From: a virus
Taxonomy: Duplodnaviria; Caudoviricetes
Virus record (IMG/VR): IMGVR_UViG_3300022923_000005
Span: 68,572 to 132,571 of that record
Strand: one strand, 5' to 3'
Length of the DNA: 64,000 nt
The translations under genes were made by a program, and so were the position numbers. This document shows positions 25,033 to 58,300 of this stretch, one piece after another; the stretch's first letter is position 1; every line of letters begins with the position of its first letter. The notes beneath the pieces are model-generated. The model was not told where the DNA came from. It did not search any database and saw only the letters and a program-made list of their open reading frames with translations.

Positions 25033-25482
25033 TTAAGCGTCTTCAGTGAAGTCGTCGTCATCAGTACCAGTTAAGGTATTGTCATCACCTGCTTCTTCAA
25101 CTTGTGCTGCGCCATCTGAAGTAGATGTTGCAAAGTTCCAAGGAACAGTCAAACCGTCATATGCGTTTGAACCTGTTGCTGTAGGTGCTGATAGTGTTGC
25201 TTTCTTTCCAGCAATTTTACTTACTAGATAAGTTTCACTGTCGTCCATTTTAAACGAAATACACATTTCACCTGCTGCTAAGTTTGCTGGCAATTTACCA
25301 GTTGTTAGTACACAAGTATATTCGCCTGCTGTTTCAATTTCTTCGCATACAAATTTCTTTGAACCTTTTTGCTTTACGATATAACCTTCTTTAACTGCTG
25401 TGTCGTTATGAAAGTTTACTTTGATTTCAGATCCAGCCGCTGTTGGCTCTCCGAATAATCTTTTGTTTAGTGGTCTTCCCAT
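25033..25482 (-). CDS. Virion protein, candidate capsid decoration protein
   Basis: Start moved to ATG 25482 (MGRPLNKRLFG) behind an AGGAG RBS; has its own late promoter; close downstream of the major capsid gene. Confidence 0.55.
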   Translation of the reverse strand: MGRPLNKRLFGEPTAAGSEIKVNFHNDTAVKEGYIVKQKGSKKFVCEEIETAGEYTCVLTTGKLPANLAAGEMCISFKMDDSETYLVSKIAGKKATLSAPTATGSNAYDGLTVPWNFATSTSDGAAQVEEAGDDNTLTGTDDDDFTEDA

Positions 25483-25587
25483 TTGTTTTCTCCTATATAA
25501 GTAGTCCAATCCGGGTTCTATCCGGTACGCTGTGGGTTAAACAGCATAAGTCCGCCTTGCGGCTCGCTATCTGACACAAGTATTTAT
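25483..25587 (-). promoter_or_regulatory. Late promoter ATAAATA (25587-25581) plus structured 5' leader
   Basis: Minus strand: GCC-GCAA-GGC hairpin, TATGCTGT/ACAGCGTA stem with a G-U pair, CCGG/CCGG stem. Confidence 0.55.
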
Positions 25588-25856
25588 CTTTTAGATAATA
25601 AAGCCATAAGCTCTACTTTACTAATAGCAGTAAGTATGCGATTAATATGGTCTAATTCTTCTTGTGCTTTTTCTAGATAAGTTGTGCGTTTTGTTTGCTT
25701 ATATTTTATAATATGCTCCATATGTTCCTTCATATGCTTTTCTAACATTTTATCAAATGTTTTAACATCGTGAGCAAACATAGGAAAACGTTTCCGCCAC
25801 TTTTGTAATTGATCTCTAAGTTTAGGAAAATCTCTGTAACTTGTAATCTTTTCCAT
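25584..25856 (-). CDS. Hypothetical basic helical protein
   Basis: Probable start ATG 25856 (MEKITSY), preceded by TAAATA at 25867-25862. Confidence 0.55.
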   Translation of the reverse strand: MEKITSYRDFPKLRDQLQKWRKRFPMFAHDVKTFDKMLEKHMKEHMEHIIKYKQTKRTTYLEKAQEELDHINRILTAISKVELMALLSKR

Positions 25857-25888
25857 ATTGCTATTTAACAATCAGAAAGTCAAGTCAT

Positions 25889-25918
25889 AAAAAAAGGGCA
25901 GTGTTTCCACCGCCCTTT
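25889..25918 (-). terminator. Rho-independent terminator after the major capsid gene
   Basis: Minus strand AAAGGGCGGTG-GAAA-CACTGCCC followed by T7. Confidence 0.9.
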
Positions 25919-25940
25919 CTAAATACTCTAATGAGTTGGC

Positions 25941-36392: not shown

Positions 36393-38866
36393 GCGGCAAG
36401 TTCTTTCTTAATAATTGCTTGTACTTCTGGTTTTAGTTTCTTAATCTGCACAACCAAATCTCCCATATTAACCGGTGCTGCCGGTGTCTTTTGGGTAGGA
36501 TTATAATCTTTCTGTCCTTGTGTTCTATCAGGAGCAGCGTACGGCTCTTCGCCTGGATTGGCTGCTGCATCTGGTTGTGTATCTGTGCTTGTAGCGTCTT
36601 GTGCTGGTGTTTCTGCATCTTGTGGTGTAGTTGTAGCATCAGCACCTTGATCACCTGCTGTTGACGCTGTATTCGCGTCTGTTGCGCCATCTTTTGATGT
36701 TGTAGTGCTAGTAGTTGAAGTAGTTGCTTGAGTATTCAATTTGTCACGTAGTTCTTCTGCTTCACCAGGTTGTAATGCTTCACCTTTTTCAACAGGTTGA
36801 TCTGTCTGTGTGTCCAAAACGTCATAGGTTTTTGGATTTTGTGCATTTGGTTGCATAATAAATTTATCACCTTCTTGTGGTTCAAACTTACCTGCTTCTT
36901 TATTCATTTTATCACTCATAGGTTCTGCTTTTTCAGGAGCAAGTCCTACGCCATCCTTAATAGGCTTACTAGTTTGCTTATCAATAATGTCTACTTTTGT
37001 TTCGTCTTTTGTATTTTTCTGTAGATAGTATCTTTCATCTTTACTTGATGTAGTACCACCTGTTGTTGGAGTGGCACTTGTTGTAGCAGTATCCCCTGTT
37101 GCTGCTGCATCATCAGTTGGCGCATCAGTATCTGTAGCGCCTGCATCAGTTGCTGTATCTGTCGCTGTGTCAGTTGCTGTATCTGTAGCACCTGCATCAG
37201 TTGCAGTGTCAGTTGCACTTGTATCTTGTGCAGCATCAGCGGCTGGCTCTTGTGCAGTTGGAAGTTCAATCTTCATTGCATCATAAGTGCCTTTAATTAC
37301 ATCATCTGCTACACCTGCTGGTTTTAAAACTTGGTCTGCAATTTCGTTTGAGTCTGTAGGTTCACCTGCTTTTTGCCAAGCCTTCATAAGTTTGTCTGCT
37401 GTAACTTTTGCAGTTAAGTTTCTACCTGCTTGTTTAATAGCACCTACACCTTTACCTATAGCGCCTGCTGCTTTTTTAAGAATTCCAGGTGCTTCGTTAA
37501 TAGTCTGTCTATTATAATATGCCACTGCATCAAATACACTTTCAAACATCAACTTGTTTTCTAGCATATGATCATTTACTTGTGTAATTTTATTGAACAG
37601 TAAATAAATCTGTCCTTCTGAAAGTTTTGTACCTGTGTATGTTTTGCTTTCTTGTGCTGGTGCTTCGCCAGTTAGTTCTGCTTTTTGTTCTGGACTTACA
37701 GGTTTTGCATTGTGCTTGTTCTTAGCGTTGTCATCAACTGTTTGTAAAGCACCCTGTGCTGCTGCGGCTACAGGTCCGCCTACATCCATAATTTTTTCAA
37801 TTGCTGCATCTGCATTATCAAGCACAGCCATCGCTTGTTCTAGTTGATCACTTGTTAGTGCATCTCTTGGTATATCACCAACTGTTTTTGCAAGTGCTGT
37901 TAAACTTTCATTTGCATCTTGTGTTGTTGATAGGAATCCGTGTAACTTACCTGCTGCTTCATAATATTCTGGACTAAAAGTTTTTGCACTGTTTGCTGCA
38001 TCTGATAATGCTTTATATTGTGCTACCTGCTCAGGAGTCATTGTTAAATCATAATTGTAATAGAAGCCGTTGATGTTACCTGACATTTTTAAATTCTGAG
38101 CACCGTCAAGTACACCCGAATCAAATCCTGCATCTGCTACTGCTTTGTCCACTGCTGCTGTAAAGTTGGCTTTTTCAAAACCATCCATCATTGCAGTTGC
38201 TTCTGCTTCACTACCTGCGGCAATGTTGTCAATAATGTTGTCTGTAATACCTTGGATTGCTGCGCCAGCAAGAGCACCATATGCTGCTGTTTTAACTGAC
38301 TTACCAACTGCTGTTGATAGTTTTTCACCTTGTAGTAAATCTTTTGTTGCTCTAGCAAGGAAACCTGCAACAGCACCGCCTAATGGTCCGCCTGCAATAG
38401 CAGCCGCTGCTGTAAGAATACCAACAGCAATACTTGCTTTGCCTGGATTGGCTTTTGCCCAATCACTTACTGCTTTCACAGCGTTTACTACTTTAGAATC
38501 TTTTGCACCAATTTTTGTTTTTAGTTCATCAAATTTTTGATCTGCATTTTTAACAGGTCCTGCTTGTTGAACTGCTCTGCCCAGTTCATTAATTTTTCCG
38601 TCAATCCATTTAAGTGCTTCAACAGGTAAGCCTGCAATGTCTTTTGCTTTACCAACACCAGTTCTGTTGTCGCCTGCTTCGTCAGCACCTTTTTCAATGC
38701 TGGTAAACAGTTGTGTAATTTGCTGTTTTGAAAGTGCTGCTTCAGTAACGTATCTTTCAACATCTGCTACCCAAGGCTGAATAGTCTTTTGTTCAAATAA
38801 AGTAAATGCAGGATCATTCCAACCTTCACTGATCAGTGTTCTTTTTTGCAGTTGACTTAGTCTCAT
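36389..38866 (-). CDS. Probable head-packaged (internal/ejection) protein, 825 aa
   Basis: Several gp21-type [LIV]xE sites, a hydrophobic Gly/Ala hairpin and Thr/Asp/Ala low-complexity linkers. Confidence 0.45.
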   Translation of the reverse strand: MRLSQLQKRTLISEGWNDPAFTLFEQKTIQPWVADVERYVTEAALSKQQITQLFTSIEKGADEAGDNRTGVGKAKDIAGLPVEALKWIDGKINELGRAVQQAGPVKNADQKFDELKTKIGAKDSKVVNAVKAVSDWAKANPGKASIAVGILTAAAAIAGGPLGGAVAGFLARATKDLLQGEKLSTAVGKSVKTAAYGALAGAAIQGITDNIIDNIAAGSEAEATAMMDGFEKANFTAAVDKAVADAGFDSGVLDGAQNLKMSGNINGFYYNYDLTMTPEQVAQYKALSDAANSAKTFSPEYYEAAGKLHGFLSTTQDANESLTALAKTVGDIPRDALTSDQLEQAMAVLDNADAAIEKIMDVGGPVAAAAQGALQTVDDNAKNKHNAKPVSPEQKAELTGEAPAQESKTYTGTKLSEGQIYLLFNKITQVNDHMLENKLMFESVFDAVAYYNRQTINEAPGILKKAAGAIGKGVGAIKQAGRNLTAKVTADKLMKAWQKAGEPTDSNEIADQVLKPAGVADDVIKGTYDAMKIELPTAQEPAADAAQDTSATDTATDAGATDTATDTATDTATDAGATDTDAPTDDAAATGDTATTSATPTTGGTTSSKDERYYLQKNTKDETKVDIIDKQTSKPIKDGVGLAPEKAEPMSDKMNKEAGKFEPQEGDKFIMQPNAQNPKTYDVLDTQTDQPVEKGEALQPGEAEELRDKLNTQATTSTTSTTTSKDGATDANTASTAGDQGADATTTPQDAETPAQDATSTDTQPDAAANPGEEPYAAPDRTQGQKDYNPTQKTPAAPVNMGDLVVQIKKLKPEVQAIIKKELAA
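37120..37220 (-). repeat. Coding tandem repeat (TDTA/TDAGA units)
   Basis: Protein ATDTATDAGATDTATDTATDTATDAGATDTDA; DNA 12-15 nt units. Confidence 0.75.
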
Positions 38867-39780
38867 AGCATTTTTCCTAGTTCAATTTTCTGTCTTGGCG
38901 TAAGTGTGTCTAGTTGTTTTTGTATATCCGCTGGAATCATTTTAGCACCCATAGCACCTGCGGCTGCACCTTTAGCAAATCCTGCTAGTCCACCTGACGC
39001 TGCTTGTCCGTCAAAACTAGTATCAGAAGTTTTTGCTTGTCCACCTTGATCACGTGCAATAGCATCTTGCACTGCTGCATAAAATACATCGTCAAGTTGT
39101 CCACTTGACAGTCCTTCCATCAGTGTACCTACATTTGAAAAATCTATGCTTTGATTTACTACAGCCTTGTTACCACTTGGTGGTACAATTTTCTTTTTGC
39201 CCATACTTTTTACATTTACGGCGTCTTTAGGATCAGGTTCTGTTGTAGTTGGTGCAGTAGTTGTTGCACCCTGAGGCGCAGTTTTCTGTGTATTAGCGTC
39301 TGTATTAGGCGCAGTTTTCTGTGCATCTGCTGGTTGTTGTGTTGCATCTGCTTTATTATCTGTATTTGTTTTCTTAAGGTTAGCAGCGGCACCTGCAACT
39401 GCACTTCCTGCTGCTGCAATACCTTTGCCAAGAGCGCCAACGGCCTTAACCGGCGCAGCCGCCGCTTTTCCTAAAGCGGAGCCTACTTTAGCACCTGTTG
39501 TAACCTTTTTCATTGCTTCTTTAGCACTATCTGTAGGATAACCATTTTTAGCAAGCCAGTTTAGTACCATATCAGGCGTTGCACCTTCACCCTTATCTTG
39601 AGTTCCTAGGTACTTCATAAATTCTTTTTTCATTAAGTTGGCTTCTTTGCCAAGTTCAAGACGTCCTGCTGCTTTGTCACTGCCTACTTTTGCAAGTGCC
39701 TTGTCTTTAATCGTGGATAAAAAGCCCTTGGGTTTTTCATCTAGACGATCTGTTTCTACTAAAATCTCATTAAGACGCAT
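38863..39780 (-). CDS. Probable head-packaged protein, 305 aa
   Basis: MRLNEILVETDRLDE N-terminus; G.PTDS motif shared with the downstream 825-aa protein; late promoter at 39825-39819. Confidence 0.45.
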   Translation of the reverse strand: MRLNEILVETDRLDEKPKGFLSTIKDKALAKVGSDKAAGRLELGKEANLMKKEFMKYLGTQDKGEGATPDMVLNWLAKNGYPTDSAKEAMKKVTTGAKVGSALGKAAAAPVKAVGALGKGIAAAGSAVAGAAANLKKTNTDNKADATQQPADAQKTAPNTDANTQKTAPQGATTTAPTTTEPDPKDAVNVKSMGKKKIVPPSGNKAVVNQSIDFSNVGTLMEGLSSGQLDDVFYAAVQDAIARDQGGQAKTSDTSFDGQAASGGLAGFAKGAAAGAMGAKMIPADIQKQLDTLTPRQKIELGKML

Positions 39781-39818
39781 TATAATTCTCTCGTAAGTGC
39801 TATACTTTTACTTAGTGT

Positions 39819-39825
39819 TATTTAT
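39819..39825 (-). promoter_or_regulatory. Late promoter ATAAATA
   Basis: Upstream of the 39780 start. Confidence 0.6.
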
Positions 39826-39836
39826 TTCTAATCAAT

Positions 39837-40275
39837 CGTTTAAAGAGATCTAAAGATCTCTAGCGTTTTCGCTAACGCTCAACGCTTTTTCTTCCCTAAA
39901 CGTTTGTGTAGTTGTATTATTTAAATTACGAAGTAATTTTTTAGCATCATCTAGATATTTGAGCCACAATTCGCCCGTTGCCGGACGAATAAGTGTGGAT
40001 AACATCATCTGAGTTATCGTCGCCACACCTGTTAAAGAAGATTACATATAATATGTACGGAGGCGGCAGACCGTCAACCCCCTACTTCAGCATTCGCAAT
40101 ATCCGCGGAAAGCAGTTAATCCCTAACAGTCGAAATTACTTGCTTTGTGGTTGTATCTTTTTCACAGCGCCACATCTTTTATGCCTAAGTTAGCATTGTC
40201 CTTGCAACACGCCAGTATCTGAACCGGGTATTTCACCGTTCCTCAAGACGAGTCGAGCATCCCCGACCAAACTTT
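39837..40275 (-). ncRNA. Candidate large structured non-coding RNA, family not recognised
   Basis: About 46% GC over 39961-40260 by hand count; many stems; GCAA tetraloop and G-U pairs consistently favour the minus strand; loop-to-distal pairing suggests a pseudoknot; no credible ORF. Confidence 0.6.
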
Positions 40276-40293
40276 GTTGCTATGTAAAATTGA

Positions 40294-40746
40294 TTAAGCC
40301 TTGTTTTTGATGTGTCGTTCTAGAAGTGCCTGCCGTAGTTTGTCTGAACCGCCTACTCTAACGTTGATAATTCCGTTATAGTACTCTTCTGATTCTAATA
40401 CTCTACGGTCAAATTGTTCTCTAGCCTCGAGATAGGACATTTCGCCCCTGCCTGTACATAGGTATAATATTTCTCTAGTAAAATTTTGTGGCCCTAATGC
40501 GTCTACATCTGCTTGAAGTTTATCAGACGAACCCCAATAGTCCTTCCAATCACTTTCTTTGTATCCGCGTCTCTTGTTTTTTTTGCCTTTTAGTGGTGGC
40601 TTTGTAGTTTTAAACTTGGCTAGTTTTTTGCCTATGTATTTTTTATTGTTGGTCTTGTTGGTAATTAGGTATACAAACCCTTCATATTCGTCAGGAATAC
40701 TATCTAGGGGTTTGTTATTAAATGTCCAACTCGGATTCTCCATCAC
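40294..40746 (-). CDS. Stand-alone GIY-YIG nuclease (Seg-like catalytic domain)
   Basis: GFVYLITN..N.KKYIGKK, YWGSS, F.REIL, E...Q, YYN; no C-terminal DNA-binding extension. Confidence 0.8.
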   Translation of the reverse strand: MMENPSWTFNNKPLDSIPDEYEGFVYLITNKTNNKKYIGKKLAKFKTTKPPLKGKKNKRRGYKESDWKDYWGSSDKLQADVDALGPQNFTREILYLCTGRGEMSYLEAREQFDRRVLESEEYYNGIINVRVGGSDKLRQALLERHIKNKA

Positions 40747-40975
40747 TCTTACTTACTTTTGATGGTCTTCCTACCTTGCCTTTTCTGGCTTGTTTACGAT
40801 CTTGCCTCTTTGATTGTATTTCGTTACGTCTTATACTTGCGTGTCGCCTAATTTCTGATAACCAAAATCTTGCCTTAATGCCTGCTTCGTCACTTCCTTT
40901 ATATTCAAACCGATCTTGCCACTTAAAGTAGTTTTGAAACGCTTCAATCATTTCGTCGTGACTGTCTGTACTCAT
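40718..40975 (-). CDS. Small basic protein, Hc1 (histone H1-like)-type
   Basis: FEYKGSDEAGIKARFWLSEIRRHASIRRNEI resembles the Hc1 F..KGNKAAG.RARK.L.E core; KVGRPSK AT-hook-like tail. Confidence 0.45.
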   Translation of the reverse strand: MSTDSHDEMIEAFQNYFKWQDRFEYKGSDEAGIKARFWLSEIRRHASIRRNEIQSKRQDRKQARKGKVGRPSKVSKSDGESELDI

Positions 40976-41520
40976 CTTAAATTTGGGCCTGTAAAAAATA
41001 ATGCCATTGACTTCCTAATACCAGAAGTTACTGGAGTTACTTTATGCTGTATCCAACTAGGAAACACTAAAAGTGATCCTGGTTTGTTAAATTCTGGAAT
41101 TGGCCACTCTCCATTTATAAAAAGTTTGAATTCTCCGCCTTCATATTCTGTGTCGCTACAGTTTAATAGGGCAGTTAACTTAATATCATACTGTTCTTCT
41201 AATACACCGTCGCCGTGCCAACTATATTCGCCTTTGTAGTATGCATCATATTCATTGTAAAGCATTGTAGTGAAGTTATTTGGTTGATACAAATCAAATC
41301 CAAAGTTGTATTTGTTAATATCGTAAACAATGTTTACAATTCTATCTACATCTTGTTTCAATTCACCATATTGCATTACACCTACACGACTTGTTTTCTT
41401 AACACCGTCAGCAGGTTCGTCAAATCCATCATTTACAATCTTGCTTTTGAACGTTTCAACCAGTTGTGGTAGTTGTTCTTGTGGGTGTGCATCTGGTGAA
41501 CAAAAGTAACTTACCTTCAT
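40972..41520 (-). CDS. 2OG-Fe(II) oxygenase (prolyl-4-hydroxylase-like)
   Basis: YSWHGD, KLTALL, EYEGGEF, GSLLVFPSWIQHKVTPVTSGIRKS. Confidence 0.85.
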   Translation of the reverse strand: MKVSYFCSPDAHPQEQLPQLVETFKSKIVNDGFDEPADGVKKTSRVGVMQYGELKQDVDRIVNIVYDINKYNFGFDLYQPNNFTTMLYNEYDAYYKGEYSWHGDGVLEEQYDIKLTALLNCSDTEYEGGEFKLFINGEWPIPEFNKPGSLLVFPSWIQHKVTPVTSGIRKSMALFFTGPNLR

Positions 41521-43295
41521 TGCACAATCTCTACATCATTTGAGTAACTTGTAAAGCCGTTCTCTTTAATAACTTTCAATACGTGATTAACACGGCCTGC
41601 TAAATCATCTCTATGCGAGATCAAAAATACATTTTTGTTACGTTCACGTGTCATTTTCTTAAGAATACTAATACTACTTTCTACACCAGCACTATCCATA
41701 CCACTATCAACAAGTTCATCAATAAACAATAAATTAATGCCGTGATATAATGATTCCCAAACGTCTCTAAATGCCCAACTTAGACTTAAAATGAGTCTAT
41801 TTCGCTCACCTCTACTGAGGTTATCGAAGTCTAAGTCCTGTCCTAGTTGTGTAATAACCACCGTTAAATCGTTCTGAAACTCTACAATGTGCGGTAATCC
41901 TACCTTTGCCAAGTAGTAAGTTAAGCGTTGATTTAGATATGCTAAGTTCTGTTCAATAATCTTTTTACGAACAAAACTATCTTTGTTTGTAAGAAGTTTG
42001 TATAAGAAATCCATATGATCTTTTACTTTGCTTAGATCATTAAGTTCTTCAAAACTTACTTCTTGTAATGCAGTTTCTTTTAAATCATCAATCTGTTCAA
42101 GATATGGATTTTCTTCTGCCTTCTTTTGTTCTAATTCTTTCTGTAAACTTTCAACTGTGTTACGATGATTGTATGCTTCTTCAACACTATCATATTGTGT
42201 TGTAGGACACGCTTCTAGTTCACCGATATCAGCAACTACTTTTGCGTGTTCTTGATACTGTGTTTCATTTGACACTATTTGTTGTGCTGCTTCTTGTAGC
42301 AATGCTTCTTTACTTTTCAGTATTTCGTCTTGTTTGTCATCGTGTAATTCTTGTCCACAAGCATAACACTTGTGATCTTTAAGATCAGCAATTTCTTTGT
42401 CTAGTTTATTAATTACTTTTTCTTGTTTTTGATTGTCAGCAGTAATATTTGCCATCCAACGTTGTGCTTCTTCCAACGAACGTTTCTTATCATTAAATGC
42501 TTCCCAACATTTGTGTGCTTCAATCTCTGCTTCAATGTCAATCTTTTCTAGTTTAGCAATTCCTGCTTCTAGTTCTGTAATATTTGTAAGTTTAGTATCT
42601 TCCCACATCTTTTGTTTGCGTTCTAAACTTTCGATGTTTGCTTGTATTCTTTCATTAGATGCTTTTACAGTTTCTATTCTTGTGTTCTCTGCATTTATTG
42701 CATCTCTATTAATGCGCATTTTTTCTTTAAGTTGATCTGCTTTCTCAGAAAGCATAGTAATACCTAGCAACTGCTCAATAATGTTGCGTTGGTCATTATT
42801 CTTCATACTTAAGAAAGGCTCTGTGTAAGTGTTAAGTGCTAGAATATGCTTGAACATATCGTGGCTCATACCAAACAAGTCTTCAATTGACTTTTGTGTT
42901 TCTCTACTGTCGCCTTGCGCTTCATTTAGATCACTAGGATCTTGTTCTGTGCCGTTAACTACAAATTTAAGAATATTTGGTTTACGTCCTCTATGAATAG
43001 AATAATCAACGCCATTCTTTTCAAAGTCAATACTAACTAACATTCCTTTGCCATTAATCTTGTTAATAAGATTATCTCGCTTAATATTAGTAAGTGCATT
43101 GCCGTAAATTGCATAACTTAGTGCATTGACGATAGTTGTTTTACCAGTGCCGTTTCTGGAACCGCTATCGTCTCCGCCTAAGTCTAGATTTTCACCTAGC
43201 ACTAGTGTAAGTTCTCCTTTGTCAAAATCAATTGCTTGAGTTTGATTACCTACACTCATAAAGTTTTTAACTGTTATATTTTTAATTTTTATCAT
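41517..43295 (-). CDS. gp46: Recombination endonuclease ATPase subunit (Rad50/SbcC; T4 gp46)
   Basis: KNFMSVGN, NGTGKTT Walker A, CYAC zinc hook, LSRGE signature, LFIDE Walker B, ISH. Confidence 0.93.
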   Translation of the reverse strand: MIKIKNITVKNFMSVGNQTQAIDFDKGELTLVLGENLDLGGDDSGSRNGTGKTTIVNALSYAIYGNALTNIKRDNLINKINGKGMLVSIDFEKNGVDYSIHRGRKPNILKFVVNGTEQDPSDLNEAQGDSRETQKSIEDLFGMSHDMFKHILALNTYTEPFLSMKNNDQRNIIEQLLGITMLSEKADQLKEKMRINRDAINAENTRIETVKASNERIQANIESLERKQKMWEDTKLTNITELEAGIAKLEKIDIEAEIEAHKCWEAFNDKKRSLEEAQRWMANITADNQKQEKVINKLDKEIADLKDHKCYACGQELHDDKQDEILKSKEALLQEAAQQIVSNETQYQEHAKVVADIGELEACPTTQYDSVEEAYNHRNTVESLQKELEQKKAEENPYLEQIDDLKETALQEVSFEELNDLSKVKDHMDFLYKLLTNKDSFVRKKIIEQNLAYLNQRLTYYLAKVGLPHIVEFQNDLTVVITQLGQDLDFDNLSRGERNRLILSLSWAFRDVWESLYHGINLLFIDELVDSGMDSAGVESSISILKKMTRERNKNVFLISHRDDLAGRVNHVLKVIKENGFTSYSNDVEIVQ

Positions 43296-44302
43296 AGGTC
43301 TCGATAAATCTCCGTAAGCATACGCTTGTCATAAGAGTCGCTGTCTAACTGTTCGATTTGATTCATTACAATAGTATCAACACTTTCAAATGACAAATCG
43401 ATAGGATCGATATTTGATTCCACTTCTACTTTTTCTGGAATCAACATAAGTTCACGTAGTTTAAATTGTGGAATAAACTGTTCCTTGATAAAGTTTGCTT
43501 CTTCAAAAGTAATCTGCACATCAATAGTAACTCGACAGTGCATATTTTCTTTTAGATGATCTTCTGGCTTTTCTAAAAGTTGACTTAGTCTAAATGTTCT
43601 AAACACAGGTTGCTTAGGCCAAGTTTTATATTCAGGCACTCCGCCCCAGTCTAAGAACATCATACCACGTTCGTCATCCCACGCATCTGCATAGTTGTGT
43701 GGAAATGCATTACCAATATACGTTACATTGCCTTTTGTTTGCCGTTTATGAAAGTGTCCACTAAACACATATTCTTGATTGACAAAATGATCAGGTTGCA
43801 GTTCTCCGTGATCAGGCATCTCAACCATTGCATTCATTTTAAAGTATGGCAGTTCGAAGTGACCAAACACGTATCTACTTTTTATATTCTTTACTGCTTT
43901 CCATTCTTCTCCAACAAGCCAAGGCAACAGTGTAACATCGCCTTCTGTTAGTTGTTCAGTAATAGGAACAATGTTAGGAAATAGTCGCATAAACTCAACA
44001 CTATTGATTTCACGTTTGTCTTTATAGAATAAATCGTGATTACCTACCATAAAGTAAGTTTTCTCAAATGTTTCGTTTAGTCTTTCTAGATTAGAAACTG
44101 TATAGTTCATTGTGCTGACATCTGTTGTCGCACGGTTATGATGCCAATCACCTAAAAATATACAAGTCTCAGCACCAGCGGCTTTTGCTTCTTCACAAAA
44201 CCATTTTACAAATTCCTCACAATCCATATTGTGAGTCCTACTACCACTTTTCATTCCAAAGTGAATATCTGTGAAGCAGGCTGCTTTCTTAAATAACGGC
44301 AT
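43292..44302 (-). CDS. gp47: Recombination nuclease subunit (Mre11/SbcD; T4 gp47)
   Basis: TDIHFG, FLGDW, VGNHD, FGHFE, SGHFH metallophosphoesterase motifs. Confidence 0.93.
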   Translation of the reverse strand: MPLFKKAACFTDIHFGMKSGSRTHNMDCEEFVKWFCEEAKAAGAETCIFLGDWHHNRATTDVSTMNYTVSNLERLNETFEKTYFMVGNHDLFYKDKREINSVEFMRLFPNIVPITEQLTEGDVTLLPWLVGEEWKAVKNIKSRYVFGHFELPYFKMNAMVEMPDHGELQPDHFVNQEYVFSGHFHKRQTKGNVTYIGNAFPHNYADAWDDERGMMFLDWGGVPEYKTWPKQPVFRTFRLSQLLEKPEDHLKENMHCRVTIDVQITFEEANFIKEQFIPQFKLRELMLIPEKVEVESNIDPIDLSFESVDTIVMNQIEQLDSDSYDKRMLTEIYRDL

Positions 44303-51755: not shown

Positions 51756-54700
51756 ATGAGCACTACAGCAAGACAAAACAATTTAATACTTAACGAGGAC
51801 TGGACTCGTATCTATCAGACGTTTCGTAACGCTGATTTCAAGTCTTATGACTTTGAAAACTTGCGTAGAGTTATTATTACATACTTGCGTGAAAATTATC
51901 CAGAAGATTTTAACGATTACATTGAAAGTTCTGAGTATCTAGCACTGATTGATGCAGTAGCATTCTTAGGACAAAGCCTTTCATTTAGACTTGACCTTGC
52001 AAGTAGAGAAAACTTTATTGAATTAGCAGAGCGTAAAGAAAGTGTTTTACGTATTGGTAAGATGCTGTCATACAATGCAAAACGTAACACACCAGCAAAA
52101 GGCCTATTGAAGTTTGTAAACGTTGCAACTACAGAAGATATTACAGATAGCAACGGTCGCAACCTAGCACAACAAGTAGTTCGTTGGAATGATCCAACAA
52201 ATACAAACTGGGCAGAACAATTTATTTTAGTTTTAAATGCTGCTATGAGTGATAACACAGAATTTGGCAGAAGTCAAGGCACTGCAAACATACAGAATAT
52301 TCCTACAGAACAATATAGATTTAGATCTTTTTCAGCAGATGTTCCAATTTTTTCTTTTAGCAAATCTGTTGCAGGAAGGAATATGGCATTTGAATTGGTA
52401 AGCACATCATTTAAAGATGCAGAAGAAATTTACGAGGAATCACCAACACCAGGCAACCAACTAGGATTTGTTTATCGTCAAGATGGACAAGGTCCAGGCA
52501 GTGCAAACACAGGATTTTACTTACAGTTTAAACAGGGTTCTTTAGAACTAGCAGATTTTAATATAGATGTACCGACAACAAATGAAAAAGTTGCTGTTGA
52601 AAGTCAGAACATTAATAATGACGATGTTTGGTTGTATTCATTAGATGCAAATGGCGGCCAAGGATCTGAATGGTTAAAAGTTTCCAACCTTGTTGGAAAC
52701 AATATTGCTTACAATAGTATTGTTGGCGGTAACAGAAATATCTATGCTGTTGATACAAAAGAGAATGATACAGTTGATTTAGTATTTGCAGATGGTGTAT
52801 ACGGAAATTTACCACAAGGTAATTTTAGAACTTACTATAGAGTGAGTAATGGATTAAGTTACACAATTAGTCCTAATGAACTGCGTGGGATTAATATTAC
52901 AGTTCCATACTTAAACAAAGCAGGACAAAGACATAGTATAACAATTGGTTTAGCACTACAGCAGTCAGTAAGCACTGCTGCTCCTTCGGAGTCTATAGAC
53001 AGCATCAGACAGAATGCTCCTGCACAATATTATACACAGAATAGAATGATTACAGGAGAAGATTATAATCTTGCTCCGTTGTCAACATCACAAAATATTT
53101 TAAAAGTAAAAAGTGTAAACAGAACATCAAGCGGCATCTCACGTAACATTGACATTATTGATGCAAGTGGAAAGTATGGTTCATTAAATGTATTTGGTGA
53201 TGATGGATATATTTACAAACAGGAATCAGAAAAAACTTTAAGTTTCAAATTTACAAGCAGAACTGATATTATTAATTTTATTAAAAATAAAATTGAAAAA
53301 GTGTTTTCAGATACCGATGTGTATAATTTTTATATTACAAGATTTGAAAAAATTCTTTTCTCAGAAACTACTATTGAGTGGAACAGTGTTACAAACGATA
53401 CTAACATTGGCACAGGTTACTTTATTAACAATATTGATTTAAGTTTACTTAAAGTAGGAACATACGCTACAAACAACTTGAAATATGTTTTGCCAGGTGC
53501 AAGTATCAAATTTACAGCACCAGAAGGTTTCCACTTTATGACAGGCCAAAATAATAAACTAATGGAGGGTGATGCAGATCATCCAGGCAGTTCGACTTAC
53601 GTATGGGCTAAAGTACAAAATGTAATTGGTGACGGAACAAACGCAGGCAGAGGAGTGCTTTCGACAGGATTAGGACCAATAACATTTAGTGAAAACATTC
53701 CAACAGGTGCAATTGCAAATAGAATAGTTCCAAAGTTTGTCTCAGATATTAATGACGCTATTGAAACGCAAATGACTAATATTGCATTTGCTAATTTAAA
53801 CTTTGGTTTAAGATATGATATTAACACAGCGCAGTGGAAAATTATTCAAGCAGAAAACTTAGATTTAACAAGTGCATTTAGTTTAGGTAAAGCAGGAGAT
53901 ATATCAAGTGAAAACTTAGATGCGTCTTGGATTATTGCATTTGTAAAAGATAACGATCAATATGTTGTAAGAGTAAGAAAACTTGATTATGTTTTTGGTA
54001 GCGTTGCACAAAACAGATTTTACTTTGATAAAAATGATAAAGCATACAACAATATTACAGGCAAACTTGAAAAAGATTCTGTAAAAGTTTTAGGCATTAA
54101 TAATCAAAGTAGTGGTGTAGGATCGTTGTTGAACGATTATACATTTGAGGTGTCAGATACTATACAGTTTGATGACGGATATGAATCTAGTCAAGAAATT
54201 AAACTGTCATTTAGTGACAAAGACAGCGACGGAGTTGTTGACGATCCCCAATCATTTGAAAATATTGTTGGTACTGATTTAGATTTAAACTTTCTATTCT
54301 TTAAGGAAGAAGCAGATGCGTATGGAACAAGTATTTTTAATCTTGTAGATAATAGCAATAATACTATTGTTGTAGCACAAAGAGAATCACAAGTTAATAT
54401 TAACGATTATACAGACGGCCAGTTAATTTATTTTTACGATGACAATGAAGATAGAGTCAAAAGCGTAAACAAATCAACAAACACTCTAAACCTTGAAACT
54501 ACTTACAAAGCAGAAATAGGAAGACGAGATCTTAAGTTTCAATATACTCACGCTGCAAGTACAGACAGAAGAATTGATCCTAGTGTAACAAACATTGTTG
54601 ATATCTTTATTTTAACAAGAGCATATGATACATCATTTAGAAATTTCCTTGCAGGAGTTGGACAACAGCCAGATGAACCTACGTCGGAAGATTTAAGAAT

Positions 54701-55355
54701 TGCTTTTGGTAGCGGATTAAATCAGATAAAAGCAATAAGTGATGAAATAATTTATCATCCTGTAAAATATAAAGTATTATTTGGGCAAACTGCTGATCCA
54801 AAAGTACAAGCACAATTTAAAGTTGTTAAGAATCCTAATAGAACAATCAACGATAATAATTTAAAAGTTAGAATTGTAAATGCTATGAATACTTTCTTTA
54901 GTATTAATAACTGGGACTTCGGTGATAGATTTTATCTTAGTGAATTAACAGCATATGTTATCAATGTAGTTTCGCCAGACGTTACAAATTTTGTAATTCT
55001 ACCAAGAGACCCAGCACAAGTATTTGGAAGTTTATTTGAAATACAAAGTAAACCAGATGAAATCTTTGTAAGCGGAGCGTCGGTTGATGACGTTAAAATA
55101 GTAACTAGCATTACTGCTGCAGAAATTAGAGCCAGCGCAGGTACAGTTGTAACTGATTCAGGCTCGAACACAACAACAAGTTCTACTAGCACTACTGTAC
55201 AGGCTGCAAGGACTGCAAGTTCTTCAAGTGCTATAACCACTTCAACAACTCCACCAAGTAGTTCAAGTAGCTCAAGCTCAAGTAGCTCAAGCTCAAGTAG
55301 CTCTAGCGGGTCAAGTGGCTCAAGTGGATCTAGCGGCGGAGGCTCTAGTTATTAA
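51756..55355 (+). CDS. gp6: Baseplate wedge protein (gp6-like), extended, with Ser-rich tail
   Basis: DF..YDFE.LR, F.DGVYG.LP, ESIDSIRQNAP..YYTQNRMIT.EDY. Confidence 0.8.
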   Translation: MSTTARQNNLILNEDWTRIYQTFRNADFKSYDFENLRRVIITYLRENYPEDFNDYIESSEYLALIDAVAFLGQSLSFRLDLASRENFIELAERKESVLRIGKMLSYNAKRNTPAKGLLKFVNVATTEDITDSNGRNLAQQVVRWNDPTNTNWAEQFILVLNAAMSDNTEFGRSQGTANIQNIPTEQYRFRSFSADVPIFSFSKSVAGRNMAFELVSTSFKDAEEIYEESPTPGNQLGFVYRQDGQGPGSANTGFYLQFKQGSLELADFNIDVPTTNEKVAVESQNINNDDVWLYSLDANGGQGSEWLKVSNLVGNNIAYNSIVGGNRNIYAVDTKENDTVDLVFADGVYGNLPQGNFRTYYRVSNGLSYTISPNELRGINITVPYLNKAGQRHSITIGLALQQSVSTAAPSESIDSIRQNAPAQYYTQNRMITGEDYNLAPLSTSQNILKVKSVNRTSSGISRNIDIIDASGKYGSLNVFGDDGYIYKQESEKTLSFKFTSRTDIINFIKNKIEKVFSDTDVYNFYITRFEKILFSETTIEWNSVTNDTNIGTGYFINNIDLSLLKVGTYATNNLKYVLPGASIKFTAPEGFHFMTGQNNKLMEGDADHPGSSTYVWAKVQNVIGDGTNAGRGVLSTGLGPITFSENIPTGAIANRIVPKFVSDINDAIETQMTNIAFANLNFGLRYDINTAQWKIIQAENLDLTSAFSLGKAGDISSENLDASWIIAFVKDNDQYVVRVRKLDYVFGSVAQNRFYFDKNDKAYNNITGKLEKDSVKVLGINNQSSGVGSLLNDYTFEVSDTIQFDDGYESSQEIKLSFSDKDSDGVVDDPQSFENIVGTDLDLNFLFFKEEADAYGTSIFNLVDNSNNTIVVAQRESQVNINDYTDGQLIYFYDDNEDRVKSVNKSTNTLNLETTYKAEIGRRDLKFQYTHAASTDRRIDPSVTNIVDIFILTRAYDTSFRNFLAGVGQQPDEPTSEDLRIAFGSGLNQIKAISDEIIYHPVKYKVLFGQTADPKVQAQFKVVKNPNRTINDNNLKVRIVNAMNTFFSINNWDFGDRFYLSELTAYVINVVSPDVTNFVILPRDPAQVFGSLFEIQSKPDEIFVSGASVDDVKIVTSITAAEIRASAGTVVTDSGSNTTTSSTSTTVQAARTASSSSAITTSTTPPSSSSSSSSSSSSSSSSSGSSGSSGSSGGGSSY
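55257..55350 (+). repeat. Poly-Ser/Gly coding repeat (TCAAGTAGCTCAAGC units)
   Basis: 15-nt unit repeated about 2.7 times at 55263-55303. Confidence 0.8.
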
Positions 55356-58300
55356 TGGCAGATAAAAAAGTTTACCCAGACAGTAAGATTCCTATTAGAA
55401 AAACATCAGAGTTCCTACCTGATATTTTTAAGACAGAAGCCAATGATAAATTTTTGGCAGGTGTCGTTGATCCTTTAATACAGCCTGGAGCAACAGATAA
55501 ACTAGTTGGATATATTGGTCGTAGATATGGTAAAACATATAATTCTAAAGACATTTATTTAGATGATGACGATACCTTGCGCAGTAGGTATCAGTTAGAA
55601 CCAGGTGTAACTATTGAAAAAGATCGTAAAATTGAAAACTTTCACGATTATATAGATTTAAAAAATATTTTAACATTTTTTGGAAACTATAATGGTCGTG
55701 ATGATATTATCAACAAGCAAGAACATTACAGTTGGAATCCACCTATTGACTGGGATAAGTTTACAAACTATAGAGAATATTTTTGGGCACCGCAAGGACC
55801 GCCCTCGGTCTCTGTATTTGGACAAAGCAGTGCAGTTACATCTACATATAAAGTAACAACTAGTATAGGTAGCACTTGGATTTTTACACCAGACGGTGCA
55901 ACTAACAATCCAAACATTGTTTTATATAGAGGACAAACATATAGGTTTGAAGTAAACAGTCCTACAGAAGGATTTGTTATTAGAACAAACTATGACACAG
56001 GTAGTTTAATTTATAATCCGCAAATTACTTACTTTGTAGGTGACTATGCAATATTCGATGATAAACTATGGCGTGCAAAAGTAGATGTGTCACCGGCAGA
56101 CGGCAGTAGTATTTCTGTTGATTCACAAGACTGGGAATTGGTAGATGATAATGCTGTTTTAGATTCATTGACTTATGGCGGCGGCATTACAAATAATGGT
56201 GCAAAAAGAGGCGTTGTAACATTTAAGGTGCCTATGGACGCACCTGACATTTTATATTATCAAAGTGATGTTGATCCAAATAGGCTTGGACAATTTATTA
56301 TAGGTAATATTGAAGACGCAACATTTATTGATCCTGAATTAGAAATTATTGGCAAAAAAGATTACACAAGTGCAAACGGTGTAACACTTACTAATGGCTT
56401 AGTAATTGAATTTAGAGGGCAAGTAGCACAAGAGAAATATGCAGAAGGTACTTGGTTAGTAGAAGGAGTAGGCAAAGAGATTTCACTTACTAAATTTACT
56501 GATTTGATTCCGCCAAGCGTTACATCTACTACACCTGAAATACTTTTTGATAATGAAGGTTTTGATAGCCAACCCTATGATGATGCTACACAGTTTCCTG
56601 GAAGTAAAGATTATATTACTATTAATAGAACAAGTAGAGATTTAAACCCTTGGAGTAGATATAATAGATGGTTCCATAGAAGTGTTTTAGAATATTCACA
56701 TCAGCAACGAGGCGTAGAGTTTGAGGCTACAGAAGATACTAGAGCAAAGCGTCCTATTATTGAATTCCATCCTAATATTCAATTGTTTAATCACGGCGGT
56801 GTAAGTAAACAAACTGTTGACTATATTGATGACTACACTACAGACATTTTTTCTAAGATAGAAGGTAGTACAGGTTACAGTGTTGACGGAGAATTTTTAT
56901 TCGAAGGTGCAAGAGTACTTGTTATTGCTGACACTGATAATTTAGCAAACAATAAAATTTATGAAGTAAGATTTATTACACACAACGGACGTAAGCAAAT
57001 TAATCTACGTGAAGCAGCAGATGCAGATAGTGCTGAAAATGAATGTTTACTTGTAAGACGTGGTAATGTAAATGCAGGACTGATGTTCCATTACAACGGT
57101 TCTAAGTGGGTACCTAGTCAACCTAAAACAAATGTAAACCAATATCCGTTGTTTGATCTTTATGATGCAGATGGAAATAGTTTTGGTGATCAAAATGTTT
57201 ATCCGGTTACTACATTTAGAGGAACACCTATTATAAGTTATGCTGTAGGTTCTGGAAGAACAGATACAGAGCTAGGATTTAAATTAAAGTACCTAAACAT
57301 TAACAATGTTGGTGATATTACATTTGACTGGAACTTGGATAAAGATTCATTTCAATACACACAATTGCAGGATACAATTACAGTACCAGTTAATAAAGGT
57401 TATCTAAAAATTGAAGGTGCATATGATAACGGTTGGACAAAAACTAATGACAAATATTTACAACCTATTATTAACACAGTAAAAATTGTTGAAGATGGTA
57501 TAAGCACAATTGACTGGACTAACACAATTGATTGGACCACAGTTACAGATAAATTAGAAATTTGTTTTTACAAAAACGGCTTAAAGTTTGATGAATCATT
57601 TACAAGAAATGTTTCTTTGTTTACATTTGAAAATGAATTTGCTGTAGGTGATGTTGTTACAATTAAAATTATTGATGATGTTGTGCCTGGTACAGGGTAC
57701 TATGAATTTCCTGTAGGATTAGAAAAGAATCCACTTAATACACAAGTAAAAGAATTTACTCTTGGACAGGCAACCGACCACTTAGTTAGTTCGCTAGAAT
57801 ATAACAAAGACTTTACAGGAACAGTTCCGGGCGTTTCAAATCTAAGAGATTTATCAGGTTTTCAAAGTTACACAAAAAGATTTCTAAAGCACAGTGGTGT
57901 TGCAGCAGCGTCAGTTACACTACTTAATGATAGAAATTATAATTTAATTAAATCTATTCAATATGCTAAAAAGGCATACAGTGTTTTTAAAGATAATTTT
58001 ATAAAGAAGGCATCTGAGATTGAGTTTGAAGATGTACCAGCAAACTTTGTTGATAATATTATTGAAGAACTTACAAGAACTAAAAGTGTAGCAAGTCCTT
58101 TTGCTGATACAGATGTAATGGGCTCAGGAGCATTTACAAGTATTGATTACGAAGTTGATGATGTAGGTATTACAACATTTGCATTAAGCACTGCGTTTGA
58201 TATTAATGCACTTAATAGAAAAGCAGTATATGTTTATATTAATGATAGACAACTACTACTTAACAGTGAATACACAATTGATTCAACATTTGCATTTGTA

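What the first reader, a model, noticed from the sequence alone, without database searches (positions are those of the whole stretch)
39837..40746. Large unrecognised structured RNA directly 3' of a stand-alone GIY-YIG nuclease: candidate nuclease-RNA system
Seen: in a genome where genes abut or overlap, 39781-40293 is by far the largest non-coding gap, and its core is GC-enriched (139/300 at 39961-40260). On the minus strand, the same strand as the nuclease gene whose stop lies about 25 nt upstream, it forms these stems: GTCGGG-GATG-CTCGAC (40267-40252); GAAC..GGT-GAAAT-ACC..GTTC (40241-40221); TGTGG..CCACA (40174-40146); a stem 40146-40109 whose loop CTGTTA(GG) pairs with distal (TT)TAACAG near 40034-40029, giving a pseudoknot; TACATA/TATGTA; GATAAC-TCAGATGAT-GTTATC (40018-39998); and ATTCGTCCG-GCAA-CGGGCGAAT (39990-39969). 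Mismatches resolve as G-U only on the minus strand. AGATGATG occurs twice. I do not see tmRNA, RNase P, tRNA or group I/II intron signatures. The 150-aa nuclease lacks the C-terminal DNA-recognition domains of Seg/I-TevI-type homing endonucleases but has a very basic insert (KFKTTKPPLKGKKNKRRGYK). Inference: the RNA is co-transcribed and may form an RNP with the nuclease, by analogy to HEARO/omegaRNA, or is an independent phage ribozyme or scaffold in the gp46/47 recombination operon.
Basis: partly seen in the sequence, partly recalled or inferred. Interest (0 to 1): 0.88.

Follow-up and report, generated by a model that had tools for sequence, protein, structure and literature searches.

The report
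Knotted twin-box phage RNA behind nuclease
The gene-free stretch behind the small nuclease gene of this uncultured T4-like phage encodes a real, doubly knotted RNA of about 340 bases that hundreds of related aquatic phages share; its job is unknown, and the nuclease looks like a replaceable neighbour, not the RNA's working partner.

Summary
Window 39781-40293 is the largest internal ORF-free gap. On the minus strand it encodes a structured RNA with a core at 39942-40284, followed by three conserved hairpins down to 39844.

Exact 20- and 22-nt words of the RNA recur in 78 and 67 viral contigs. On 42 distinct relatives, 88% of proposed pairs form, against 37-44% for slid controls. Both pseudoknots show compensatory changes. 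No Rfam family matches the window.

Sister loci L095 and L145 begin with the orphan Rfam motif Polynucleobacter-1 and share the window RNA's 3' domain. The family is therefore an uncatalogued relative of that motif.

Two identical 7-nt boxes flank a GCAA-capped hairpin and change in step across at least 13 variants. I found no pairing partner for them.

The nuclease-RNA system reading is not supported. An unrelated PD-(D/E)XK nuclease occupies the same slot before the same RNA in many contigs. The nuclease type switches at least 6 times on a gp46 tree.

Function is unknown. My best guess is an autonomous folded RNA that presents two identical docking sites.

This scan had already noted the family on other genomes.

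The parts
39942..40284 (-). Core of the structured RNA (closing helix P1, hairpins P2-P10, P12-P13, long-range helix P4, two pseudoknots)
   Evidence: Aligned with 41 distinct relatives; 88.1% of cells paired against 37-44% for slid controls; 29 pairs changed on both sides. The wider set A5 gives 83.5% against 40-47%, with 45 pairs changed on both sides.
40124..40129 (-). Pseudoknot 1, 5' strand (CUGUUA in the loop of hairpin P7)
   Evidence: Pairs with 40029-40034. 98.8% paired in A4 and 95.1% in A5, with 5 of 6 pairs changed on both sides.
40029..40034 (-). Pseudoknot 1, 3' strand (UAACAG)
   Evidence: Observed variants: CUGUUA/UAACAG, CUAUUA/UAAUAG, CUGUUU/AAACAG, CUUAAUA/UAUUAAG.
40085..40088 (-). 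Pseudoknot 2, 5' strand (GAAG in the junction GCUGAAGUAGG)
   Evidence: Pairs with 40037-40040. 98.1% paired, and all 4 pairs changed on both sides in A5. Variants: GAAG/CUUC, AGAG/CUCU, AGAA/UUCU, AGGG/CCCU.
40037..40040 (-). Pseudoknot 2, 3' strand (CUUC)
40004..40010 (-). Twin box 1 (AGAUGAU, preceded by ACUC)
   Evidence: Its first six letters equal those of box 2 in 42 of 42 (A4) and 26 of 27 (A5) distinct RNAs, although at least 13 box variants exist.
39946..39952 (-). Twin box 2 (AGAUGAU, preceded by AUCU); its last base overlaps the closing helix P1
39969..39990 (-). 9-bp hairpin capped by GCAA (P13), lying between the two boxes
   Evidence: The exact 22-mer is found in 67 viral contigs. 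99.7% paired in A4.
39924..39938 (-). Hairpin P14 with a UUC loop closed by C-G
   Evidence: 98% paired; 3 of 6 pairs changed on both sides.
39862..39886 (-). Hairpin whose stem covaries and whose 12-13-nt loop GAGCGnnAGCGA is conserved
   Evidence: Stem variants AGCGUU/AACGCU, UGUUU/AAACA and UGCAUU/AAUGCA seen. The motif follows 46 of 50 nuclease-anchored loci and occurs only once in the 132.6-kb genome.
39844..39861 (-). Last hairpin (AGAGAUC-UUUA-GAUCUCU). A possible 3' end, but it lacks a U-run.
   Evidence: The stem covaries among relatives. It is not scored as an intrinsic terminator.
40294..40746 (-). 150-aa GIY-YIG nuclease gene (catalytic domain only)
   Evidence: PF19835 at 3.8e-36; phrog_447. 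The model's best fold match is the I-TevI catalytic domain, probability 0.92. The residues that I take, from knowledge of the GIY-YIG family, to be catalytic (Y25, Y36, R58/R59, E91, N123) are invariant.
40718..40975 (-). 85-aa basic protein (p85), syntenic upstream neighbour of the nuclease slot
   Evidence: Present in 31 of the 33 RNA clusters and in part of the PD-(D/E)XK loci; no family in Pfam, PHROGs or NCBIfam.
41517..44302 (-). gp46 (Rad50/SbcC-like) and gp47 (Mre11/SbcD-like) genes heading the syntenic block
   Evidence: Pfam matches; synteny across loci.
38863..39780 (-). Downstream 305-aa gene, preceded by AUAAAUA at 39819-39825
   Evidence: AUAAAUA matches 7 of 8 positions of the T4 late-promoter word TATAAATA (consensus from my own knowledge; inference only). 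Gene synteny.

Best explanation
The gap encodes a genuine non-coding RNA. Its core of about 340 nt (39942-40284, minus strand) has a closing helix, about ten hairpins, one long-range helix and two pseudoknots. Three conserved hairpins follow, down to 39844.

It belongs to a large, uncatalogued superfamily of RNAs that ends the gp47-gp46-p85-nuclease gene block in uncultured aquatic T4-like phages.

Inferred, not shown: the RNA is made as the 3' part of that transcript. It acts as an autonomous folded RNA, not as a guide for the nuclease. It displays two identical single-stranded 7-nt boxes on either side of a rigid GCAA-capped helix. In this way it docks two copies of one ligand that co-varies with the boxes. 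Given how many box variants exist among close relatives, that ligand is more likely a nucleic acid than a protein.

The upstream nuclease gene is a replaceable occupant of a slot next to the RNA gene. It is either a homing-type selfish nuclease that exploits this very conserved locus, or a recombination nuclease subject to non-orthologous displacement.
For: RNA is real and widespread.
- Exact 20-mer and 22-mer words occur in 78 and 67 IMG/VR contigs, forming 33 clusters at 97% identity.
- 88% of pairs form against about 40% for slid controls; 29 and 45 pairs carry compensatory changes.
- Both pseudoknots covary.
- The RNA is about 83% identical where gp46 is only 50-65% identical.

Not coding. 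Box spacing modulo 3 is uniform at 23/20/19, and the 58-aa ORF is cut short in L003.

Synteny. All 33 clusters share the same gene order. In a gp46-anchored sample, 52 of 52 loci have a nuclease and 45 of 52 have a profile-detectable RNA.

Nuclease is swappable.
- PF24608 PD-(D/E)XK replaces GIY-YIG before the same RNA.
- At least 6 switches occur on the gp46 tree, at least 4 of them forced by well-supported branches.

Twin boxes. They are identical within each RNA across at least 13 variants. No complementary segment exists inside the RNA.

No separate promoter or terminator consensus was found.
Against: - Transcript ends, stability and processing are therefore unknown.
- No ligand for the boxes was found. 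The reverse-complement word has no telling location in the 132.6-kb genome fragment.
- In every lineage sampled a nuclease gene lies upstream of the RNA, directly in most. This fits a functional link to 'a nuclease' as well as it fits synteny or homing.
- GIY-YIG and RNA divergence mostly track gp46 (r = 0.75 and 0.59). This looks like stable vertical inheritance, not an actively mobile gene.
- The helices P1, P4 and P12 are only weakly supported outside the window's near relatives.
Confidence: 0.55

Rival explanations
1. Nuclease-RNA system. The RNA binds the domain-less nuclease and supplies target recognition or regulation, as omega-RNA does for IscB/IsrB, with the twin boxes acting as short guides.
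For: - The RNA starts within a few nucleotides of the nuclease stop codon. A nuclease is present in 52 of 52 gp46-anchored loci and in 50 of 50 GIY-anchored loci with enough flank.
- Both nuclease types are bare catalytic domains without DNA-binding modules.
- The GIY-YIG protein carries an invariant basic insert.
Against: - Two unrelated folds alternate before the same RNA, with at least 6 switches.
- L074 keeps a standard type-A RNA after the swap: the nhmmer profile matches over 354 nt at its L074 coordinates, and the same contig, re-fetched as L172, scores E 5e-98.
- Extra genes separate nuclease and RNA in L117 and L325/L326.
- The only fast-varying single strands are 7 nt long and duplicated.
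- There is no Rfam HEARO match.
- A GIY-YIG relative in phage Melnitz has no such RNA.
Confidence: 0.05
2. Cis-acting 3' untranslated region. It would be a large exonuclease-resistant end-cap and insulator that stabilises the gp47-gp46-nuclease transcript and separates it from the late transcription unit that follows.
For: - The RNA lies at the end of a co-oriented gene block and is followed by three hairpins.
- A late-promoter-like AUAAAUA precedes the next gene.
- No promoter of its own is detected.
Against: - The junction nucleotides are invariant, and there are two pseudoknots and a GNRA-capped helix. This is far more than an end-cap needs.
- The twin-box co-variation is not explained by this reading.
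- The last hairpin lacks a U-run.
Confidence: 0.15
3. DNA-level element. The region would serve as a recombination or replication site, with the twin boxes acting like the identical crossover cores of two recombination sites, or as nuclease target sites.
For: - Identical short cores that vary between lineages but match within one genome are what recombination sites with a shared overlap region look like (general knowledge).
- The locus sits in a recombination operon next to a nuclease.
- The RNA genes are mosaic: L016 resembles L010 at its 5' end and L002 at its 3' end.
Against: - G-U pairs are frequent and strand-specific. Both pseudoknots covary as RNA-type pairs, and the fold is stronger on the minus strand.
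- No recombinase lies nearby.
- The boxes are only about 58 bp apart.
Confidence: 0.08
4. Self-processing ribozyme or remnant of a mobile intron that carried the nuclease gene.
For: - GIY-YIG genes commonly ride in group I introns. TIGR01453 (group I intron endonuclease) gives a weak hit at 7.9e-05, below its cut-off.
- The RNA has the size, pseudoknots and GNRA loop typical of large ribozymes.
Against: - No group I or II intron or small-ribozyme match in Rfam at E<=10.
- No interrupted host gene: the flanking ORFs are complete and syntenic with or without inserts.
- The helix order does not fit the P3-P7 arrangement of group I introns (the comparison rests on my own knowledge).
Confidence: 0.07

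Closest known systems
Polynucleobacter-1 RNA motif (Rfam RF01718; Weinberg et al. 2010, PMC2864571)
   Same: Sister loci L095 and L145 carry a full RF01718 match (67 and 72 bits; gathering score 37) directly after a GIY-YIG stop codon. The same RNAs continue into a 3' domain that matches the window RNA's profile positions 219-360 and 271-360 (E 9e-19 and 2.5e-13). This 3' domain includes the twin boxes, the capped hairpin and the trailing hairpins. The function is unknown for both.
   Different: The window RNA and 16 other type-A loci give no RF01718 match even at E<=10. The 141-position motif covers only the first third of the sister RNAs. The only paper found that names the motif lists it in a table as a candidate from Burkholderiales and fresh water/estuary.
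GOLLD and ROOL RNAs (large ornate non-coding RNAs often carried by phages; comparison from my own knowledge)
   Same: They are large, multi-helix, pseudoknotted RNAs of unknown function that are phage-borne and more conserved than neighbouring proteins.
   Different: There is no Rfam match to either. The helix layout differs. This RNA has a fixed position after a nuclease gene at the end of the gp46/47 block, and twin co-varying boxes, which are not described for those RNAs.
HEARO / omega-RNA with IsrB, IscB or TnpB nucleases
   Same: A structured RNA of a few hundred nucleotides lies next to a small nuclease gene on the same strand.
   Different: The nuclease here is GIY-YIG or PD-(D/E)XK, not RuvC-type. 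There is no guide of 16 nt or more and no transposon ends. There is no HEARO match. The nuclease can be exchanged for an unrelated fold.
Free-standing phage homing endonucleases lodged beside conserved genes, e.g. T4 SegB in the tRNA gene cluster (from my own knowledge)
   Same: A small GIY-YIG gene sits next to a very conserved RNA gene. A second, unrelated nuclease family competes for the same slot, with repeated switches.
   Different: The protein lacks the C-terminal DNA-binding domain of Seg and I-TevI enzymes (150 aa). The slot was never found empty (0 of 52). The gene is inherited mostly vertically under purifying selection. No cleavage site is known.

Membership tests
Polynucleobacter-1 RNA (RF01718) | Covariance-model match at or above the gathering score (37 bits) | tested here: not met
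   There is no match in the window region at E<=10, in the whole 132.6-kb record, or in 16 type-A loci. The criterion is met in the sister loci L095 and L145.
Polynucleobacter-1 RNA (RF01718) | Homology through intermediates (shared domains with bona fide members) | tested here: met
   L095 and L145 carry RF01718 followed by a 3' domain that matches the window RNA's nhmmer profile.
Twin-box phage RNA superfamily (uncatalogued; the name comes from earlier notes of this scan) | Position after the nuclease slot at the end of the gp47-gp46-(p85) block | tested here: met
Twin-box phage RNA superfamily (uncatalogued; the name comes from earlier notes of this scan) | Two covarying pseudoknots | tested here: met
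   PK1 is 95-99% paired and PK2 98% paired, with compensatory changes.
Twin-box phage RNA superfamily (uncatalogued; the name comes from earlier notes of this scan) | Two identical 7-nt boxes (after ACUC and AUCU) flanking a capped hairpin | tested here: met
   AGAUGAU lies at 40010-40004 and at 39952-39946. The same arrangement occurs in 50 of 50 GIY-anchored loci with enough flank.
Twin-box phage RNA superfamily (uncatalogued; the name comes from earlier notes of this scan) | Trailing hairpin with the conserved loop GAGCGnnAGCGA | tested here: met
   It lies at 39862-39886. It is unique in the genome and present in 46 of 50 loci.
HEARO / omega-RNA guide RNAs | Rfam HEARO match, a RuvC-type IscB/IsrB/TnpB neighbour, and a guide segment of 16 nt or more | tested here: not met
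   No Rfam match. The neighbour is a GIY-YIG nuclease. The only variable single strands are 7 nt long.
Group I intron carrying a GIY-YIG gene | Intron covariance-model match and an interrupted host gene with joinable exons | tested here: not met
   No Rfam intron match at E<=10. The flanking ORFs are complete. The candidate 3' ORF is not conserved.
GIY-YIG homing endonuclease (Seg / I-TevI type) | GIY-YIG catalytic domain with the catalytic residues present | tested here: met
   PF19835 at 3.8e-36. The residues that I take, from knowledge of the GIY-YIG family, to be catalytic (Y25, Y36, R58/R59, E91, N123) are invariant. The best fold match is the I-TevI catalytic domain.
GIY-YIG homing endonuclease (Seg / I-TevI type) | Appended DNA-recognition domain | tested here: not met
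   The protein is 150 aa, with residues 7-127 covered by the catalytic-domain model. The rest of the model is two C-terminal helices of low confidence.
GIY-YIG homing endonuclease (Seg / I-TevI type) | Sporadic presence/absence among close relatives, and cleavage of the gene-less allele | tested here: inconclusive
   The slot is never empty (0 of 52). However, the occupant alternates with a PD-(D/E)XK gene at least 6 times. Cleavage cannot be tested with these tools.

The most novel reading that the evidence does not exclude
The RNA is the targeting or regulatory subunit for whichever bare nuclease domain is encoded upstream. The twin boxes would then act as paired short guides that position a domain-less GIY-YIG or PD-(D/E)XK nuclease on a duplicated or palindromic target. 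This would be an RNA-directed nuclease system unrelated to CRISPR or OMEGA.
Probability: 0.04. Interest if true: 0.93.

Novelty: new variant of a known kind. Interest (0 to 1): 0.62.

Why it matters
Few RNAs of this size and complexity lack a known function, and the RNAs of this kind whose function is known are mostly ribozymes, riboswitch-like sensors or RNP scaffolds.

This RNA is held more tightly than the essential recombination proteins beside it. It is present in hundreds of uncultured aquatic T4-like phage contigs. Two sequence words stay identical to each other while changing between lineages, which points to a specific partner still to be found.

Only the first third of a sister branch is catalogued, as an orphan Rfam motif. 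Defining the full-length family, its two pseudoknots, its modular 5' domains and the alternating nuclease slot gives a concrete target for structure work and for partner searches. It also corrects the tempting reading that this is an RNA-guided nuclease.

Tried and rejected
- **Small protein gene.** The 58-aa ORF at 39850-40026 starts at box 1. It was rejected because it ends early in L003, because box spacing modulo 3 is uniform at 23/20/19, and because the hairpin covaries while the peptide is not kept.
- **Group I intron with 5' and 3' exons.** No Rfam match was found and the flanking genes are complete.
- **Boxes as start-site or stop/start mimics.** This was rejected by variants without AUG or UGA/UAA, such as ACAGAAA and ACAGGAA. 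Genome copies of the word lie inside coding frames. No RegA family was found in the genome fragment, but that search had no positive control.
- **Pairing partner for the boxes within the RNA.** Only the AUCU prefix of box 2 pairs, and only in AGAU-type variants. The P3 strand UCGUCU fits in the window but does not covary (by inspection).
- **Partner elsewhere in the genome.** The search was uninformative.
- **CATG avoidance as the cause of the parallel box change.** This holds only in the window's clade. L176-L178 are CATG-poor yet keep GCAUGAU boxes.
- **Cultured carriers.** No phage in the isolate collection matches RNAs of types A, B or C.
- **Protein sequence search of solved structures.** No hit.

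Full report
**What is there**

Genes on the minus strand run in this order:
- gp47 (Mre11/SbcD-like, 43292-44302)
- gp46 (Rad50/SbcC-like, 41517-43295)
- a 2OG-Fe(II) oxygenase (40972-41520)
- an 85-aa basic protein, p85 (40718-40975)
- a 150-aa GIY-YIG nuclease (40294-40746; PF19835 at 3.8e-36)
- a 513-nt gap (39781-40293)
- a 305-aa gene and an 825-aa gene of unknown family

The window is part of a 132.6-kb IMG/VR virus record estimated to be 38% complete. Its gp46/47 genes resemble those of large T4-like and jumbo phages only distantly.

The gap is the largest internal ORF-free stretch of the window.

**Checking the observation**

The minus strand folds better than shuffled sequence (z = -2.56). 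The plus strand does not (z = -1.26).

Rfam gives nothing for the gap at gathering score or at E<=10. The only Rfam hit in the window is freshwater-2 at 25480-25566.

**Relatives**

- A protein search with the downstream gene found four contigs. Their gaps are 87% identical to the window's and already show whole-hairpin swaps that keep pairing.
- Two exact words from the RNA, a 20-mer and a 22-mer, occur in 78 and 67 IMG/VR contigs. This gave 90 loci in 33 clusters at 97% identity.
- All share the order gp47-gp46-(oxygenase)-p85-nuclease-RNA-(p305)-p825.
- Where gp46 proteins are only 50-65% identical, the RNAs are on average 83% identical and the nucleases 71%.

**Structure**

I derived a structure from the window sequence and projected it on a MAFFT alignment of 42 distinct RNAs (A4).
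- 88.1% of cells pair, against 37-44% when the 3' partners are slid by 1-3 columns.
- 29 pairs carry changes on both sides, against 6-14 in the slid controls.
- No shuffle of 500 reaches the observed covariation score.

A wider alignment of 27 RNAs (A5) includes RNAs that follow the other nuclease type. It gives 83.5% against 40-47%, and 45 pairs with changes on both sides.

Both pseudoknots are well supported:
- PK1 pairs 40124-40129 with 40029-40034. It is 95% paired, and 5 of 6 pairs changed on both sides.
- PK2 pairs 40085-40088 with 40037-40040. It is 98% paired, and all 4 pairs changed on both sides.

Support for the other helices varies:
- The variable hairpin at 40221-40241 and the hairpin around box 1 (39998-40018) are clade-specific.
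- P1, P4 and P12 are weaker outside near relatives.
- Low scores for P6 and P3a in A4 come from alignment slips in variable regions.

Three further elements follow the core and covary or are conserved:
- a UUC-loop hairpin (39924-39938)
- a hairpin with the conserved loop GAGCGnnAGCGA (39862-39886), a motif unique in the genome
- a last hairpin (39844-39861) without a U-run

**Twin boxes**

AGAUGAU occurs after ACUC (40010-40004) and after AUCU (39952-39946), on either side of the invariant GCAA-capped 9-bp hairpin.

Across the loci, at least 13 box variants occur: ACAUGAA, ACAUGAU, AGAUGAU, AGAUAAU, AGAUGAA, GAAUAAU, ACAUAAU, GCAUGAU, GCAUAAU, GGAUAAU, AGAUGAG, ACGUGAA and ACAGAAA. Within one RNA the two boxes agree in their first six letters in 42 of 42 and in 26 of 27 aligned sequences.

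The spacing between boxes is not a multiple of three, so no reading frame links them. I found no complementary strand inside the RNA. The genome fragment gave nothing telling either. Whatever reads the boxes is still unknown.

**Relation to Rfam**

Earlier notes of this scan call the family a twin-box RNA and relate it to Polynucleobacter-1 (RF01718). I tested this.
- The window, its whole record and 16 type-A loci give no RF01718 match at E<=10.
- Among loci found through the nuclease, L095 and L145 have full RF01718 matches of 67 and 72 bits right after the stop codon.
- Their downstream parts match my profile of the window's RNA at positions 219-360 and 271-360.

The family is therefore modular. 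The core and 3' domain are shared, while the 5' domain comes in at least three forms:
- the window's type
- the Polynucleobacter-1 type
- a third type seen in most GIY-anchored loci

The window belongs to the superfamily but does not itself meet the Rfam family's criterion. The only paper found that names the motif lists it as an uncharacterised candidate.

**The nuclease**

- Among the 80 closest GIY-YIG relatives, all 50 with enough downstream sequence carry the twin-box signature.
- In L074 the slot holds a PD-(D/E)XK nuclease instead (PF24608, 2e-27).
- Relatives of that protein are followed by the same RNA family in at least 49 of 80 contigs, in the same gp46-(p85) context.
- On a FastTree gp46 tree of 126 distinct rows (89 GIY-YIG, 37 PD-(D/E)XK), the nuclease type changes at least 6 times. 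At least 4 of these changes are forced by well-supported branches.
- In a sample anchored on gp46 alone, 51 loci have GIY-YIG, 1 has PD-(D/E)XK and none has an empty slot. The RNA is detected in 45 of 52.
- L117 and L325/L326 have extra coding sequence between nuclease and RNA.
- The cultured phage Melnitz has a GIY-YIG relative without the RNA.
- The protein model (pLDDT 79) best matches the I-TevI catalytic domain. The residues I take from family knowledge to be catalytic are invariant.

Two unrelated folds alternating before an unchanged RNA argues against a co-evolved RNP. The pattern fits one of two readings:
- two homing-type nucleases competing for a very conserved locus
- non-orthologous displacement of a recombination nuclease

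I cannot decide between these two readings here.

**Verdict**

What the RNA does is unknown. My working model is an autonomous folded RNA that presents two identical docking sites. That model is an inference from the anatomy, not a demonstrated mechanism.

This scan had already found the family on many other genomes.
- the failed direct RF01718 test for this window, with the bridge through L095 and L145
- formal counts for both pseudoknots
- the extent and repeated switching of the nuclease slot
- the never-empty slot
- the CATG observation noted in passing

Noticed in passing
whole record G000 (window = G000:C1:68572-132571): The tetranucleotide CATG is absent from all 132,571 bases (about 392 expected). 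AGCT (55 against 373 expected) and CGCG (22 against 81) are also strongly depleted. This looks like restriction-site avoidance. All CATG-free relatives carry the CATG-free box variant AGAUGAU, but they form essentially one clade. L176-L178 are CATG-poor yet keep GCAUGAU boxes.
   Followed up: partly
window 25480-25566 (-): The only Rfam match in the window is freshwater-2 RNA (64.8 bits; gathering score 49.9). It overlaps the edge of the second-largest internal ORF-free stretch, 25510-25940.
   Followed up: no
window 55355-64000 (+): A giant open reading frame of at least 2,882 aa runs off the window end. It directly follows a 1,199-aa ORF at 51756-55355.
   Followed up: no
window 40972-41520 (-): The 2OG-Fe(II) oxygenase gene between gp46 and p85 is present in only 6 of the 33 RNA clusters (representatives: window, L011, L021, L024, L029, L036). 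Elsewhere gp46 abuts p85.
   Followed up: no
L016 46-402 (-), compared with L010 and L002: This RNA gene is mosaic. Its first ~100 nt equal those of L010 and the rest equals L002. This suggests recombination inside the RNA gene (by inspection).
   Followed up: partly
L099, L111, L112, L139, L143 (GIY-anchored loci): Several contigs end about 155-160 nt after the nuclease stop codon, inside the RNA. This could be expected if a sequence shared between strains breaks assemblies (locus lengths).
   Followed up: no
L091 3894-4043 (Methylophilales phage Melnitz-1): The 148-nt gap after Melnitz's GIY-YIG relative contains the 9-mer CATAGCAAC, which opens the window's RNA, and a TTTGAGCG word. There is no profile match, so this is either a remnant or chance.
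   Followed up: partly
window 40718-40975 (-): The 85-aa basic protein upstream of the nuclease slot has no family. The language-model atlas places it among viral hypothetical proteins, with a weak lead to histone-like Hc1 (score 0.87; the family is on 15% of cluster members). It is an untested candidate for binding the RNA.
   Followed up: partly
window 39844-39940: The palindromes that another first-stage note on this window read as possible DNA elements are the covarying trailing hairpins of the RNA locus. Their stems change in a compensating way among relatives, and the loop motif is unique in the genome.
   Followed up: partly
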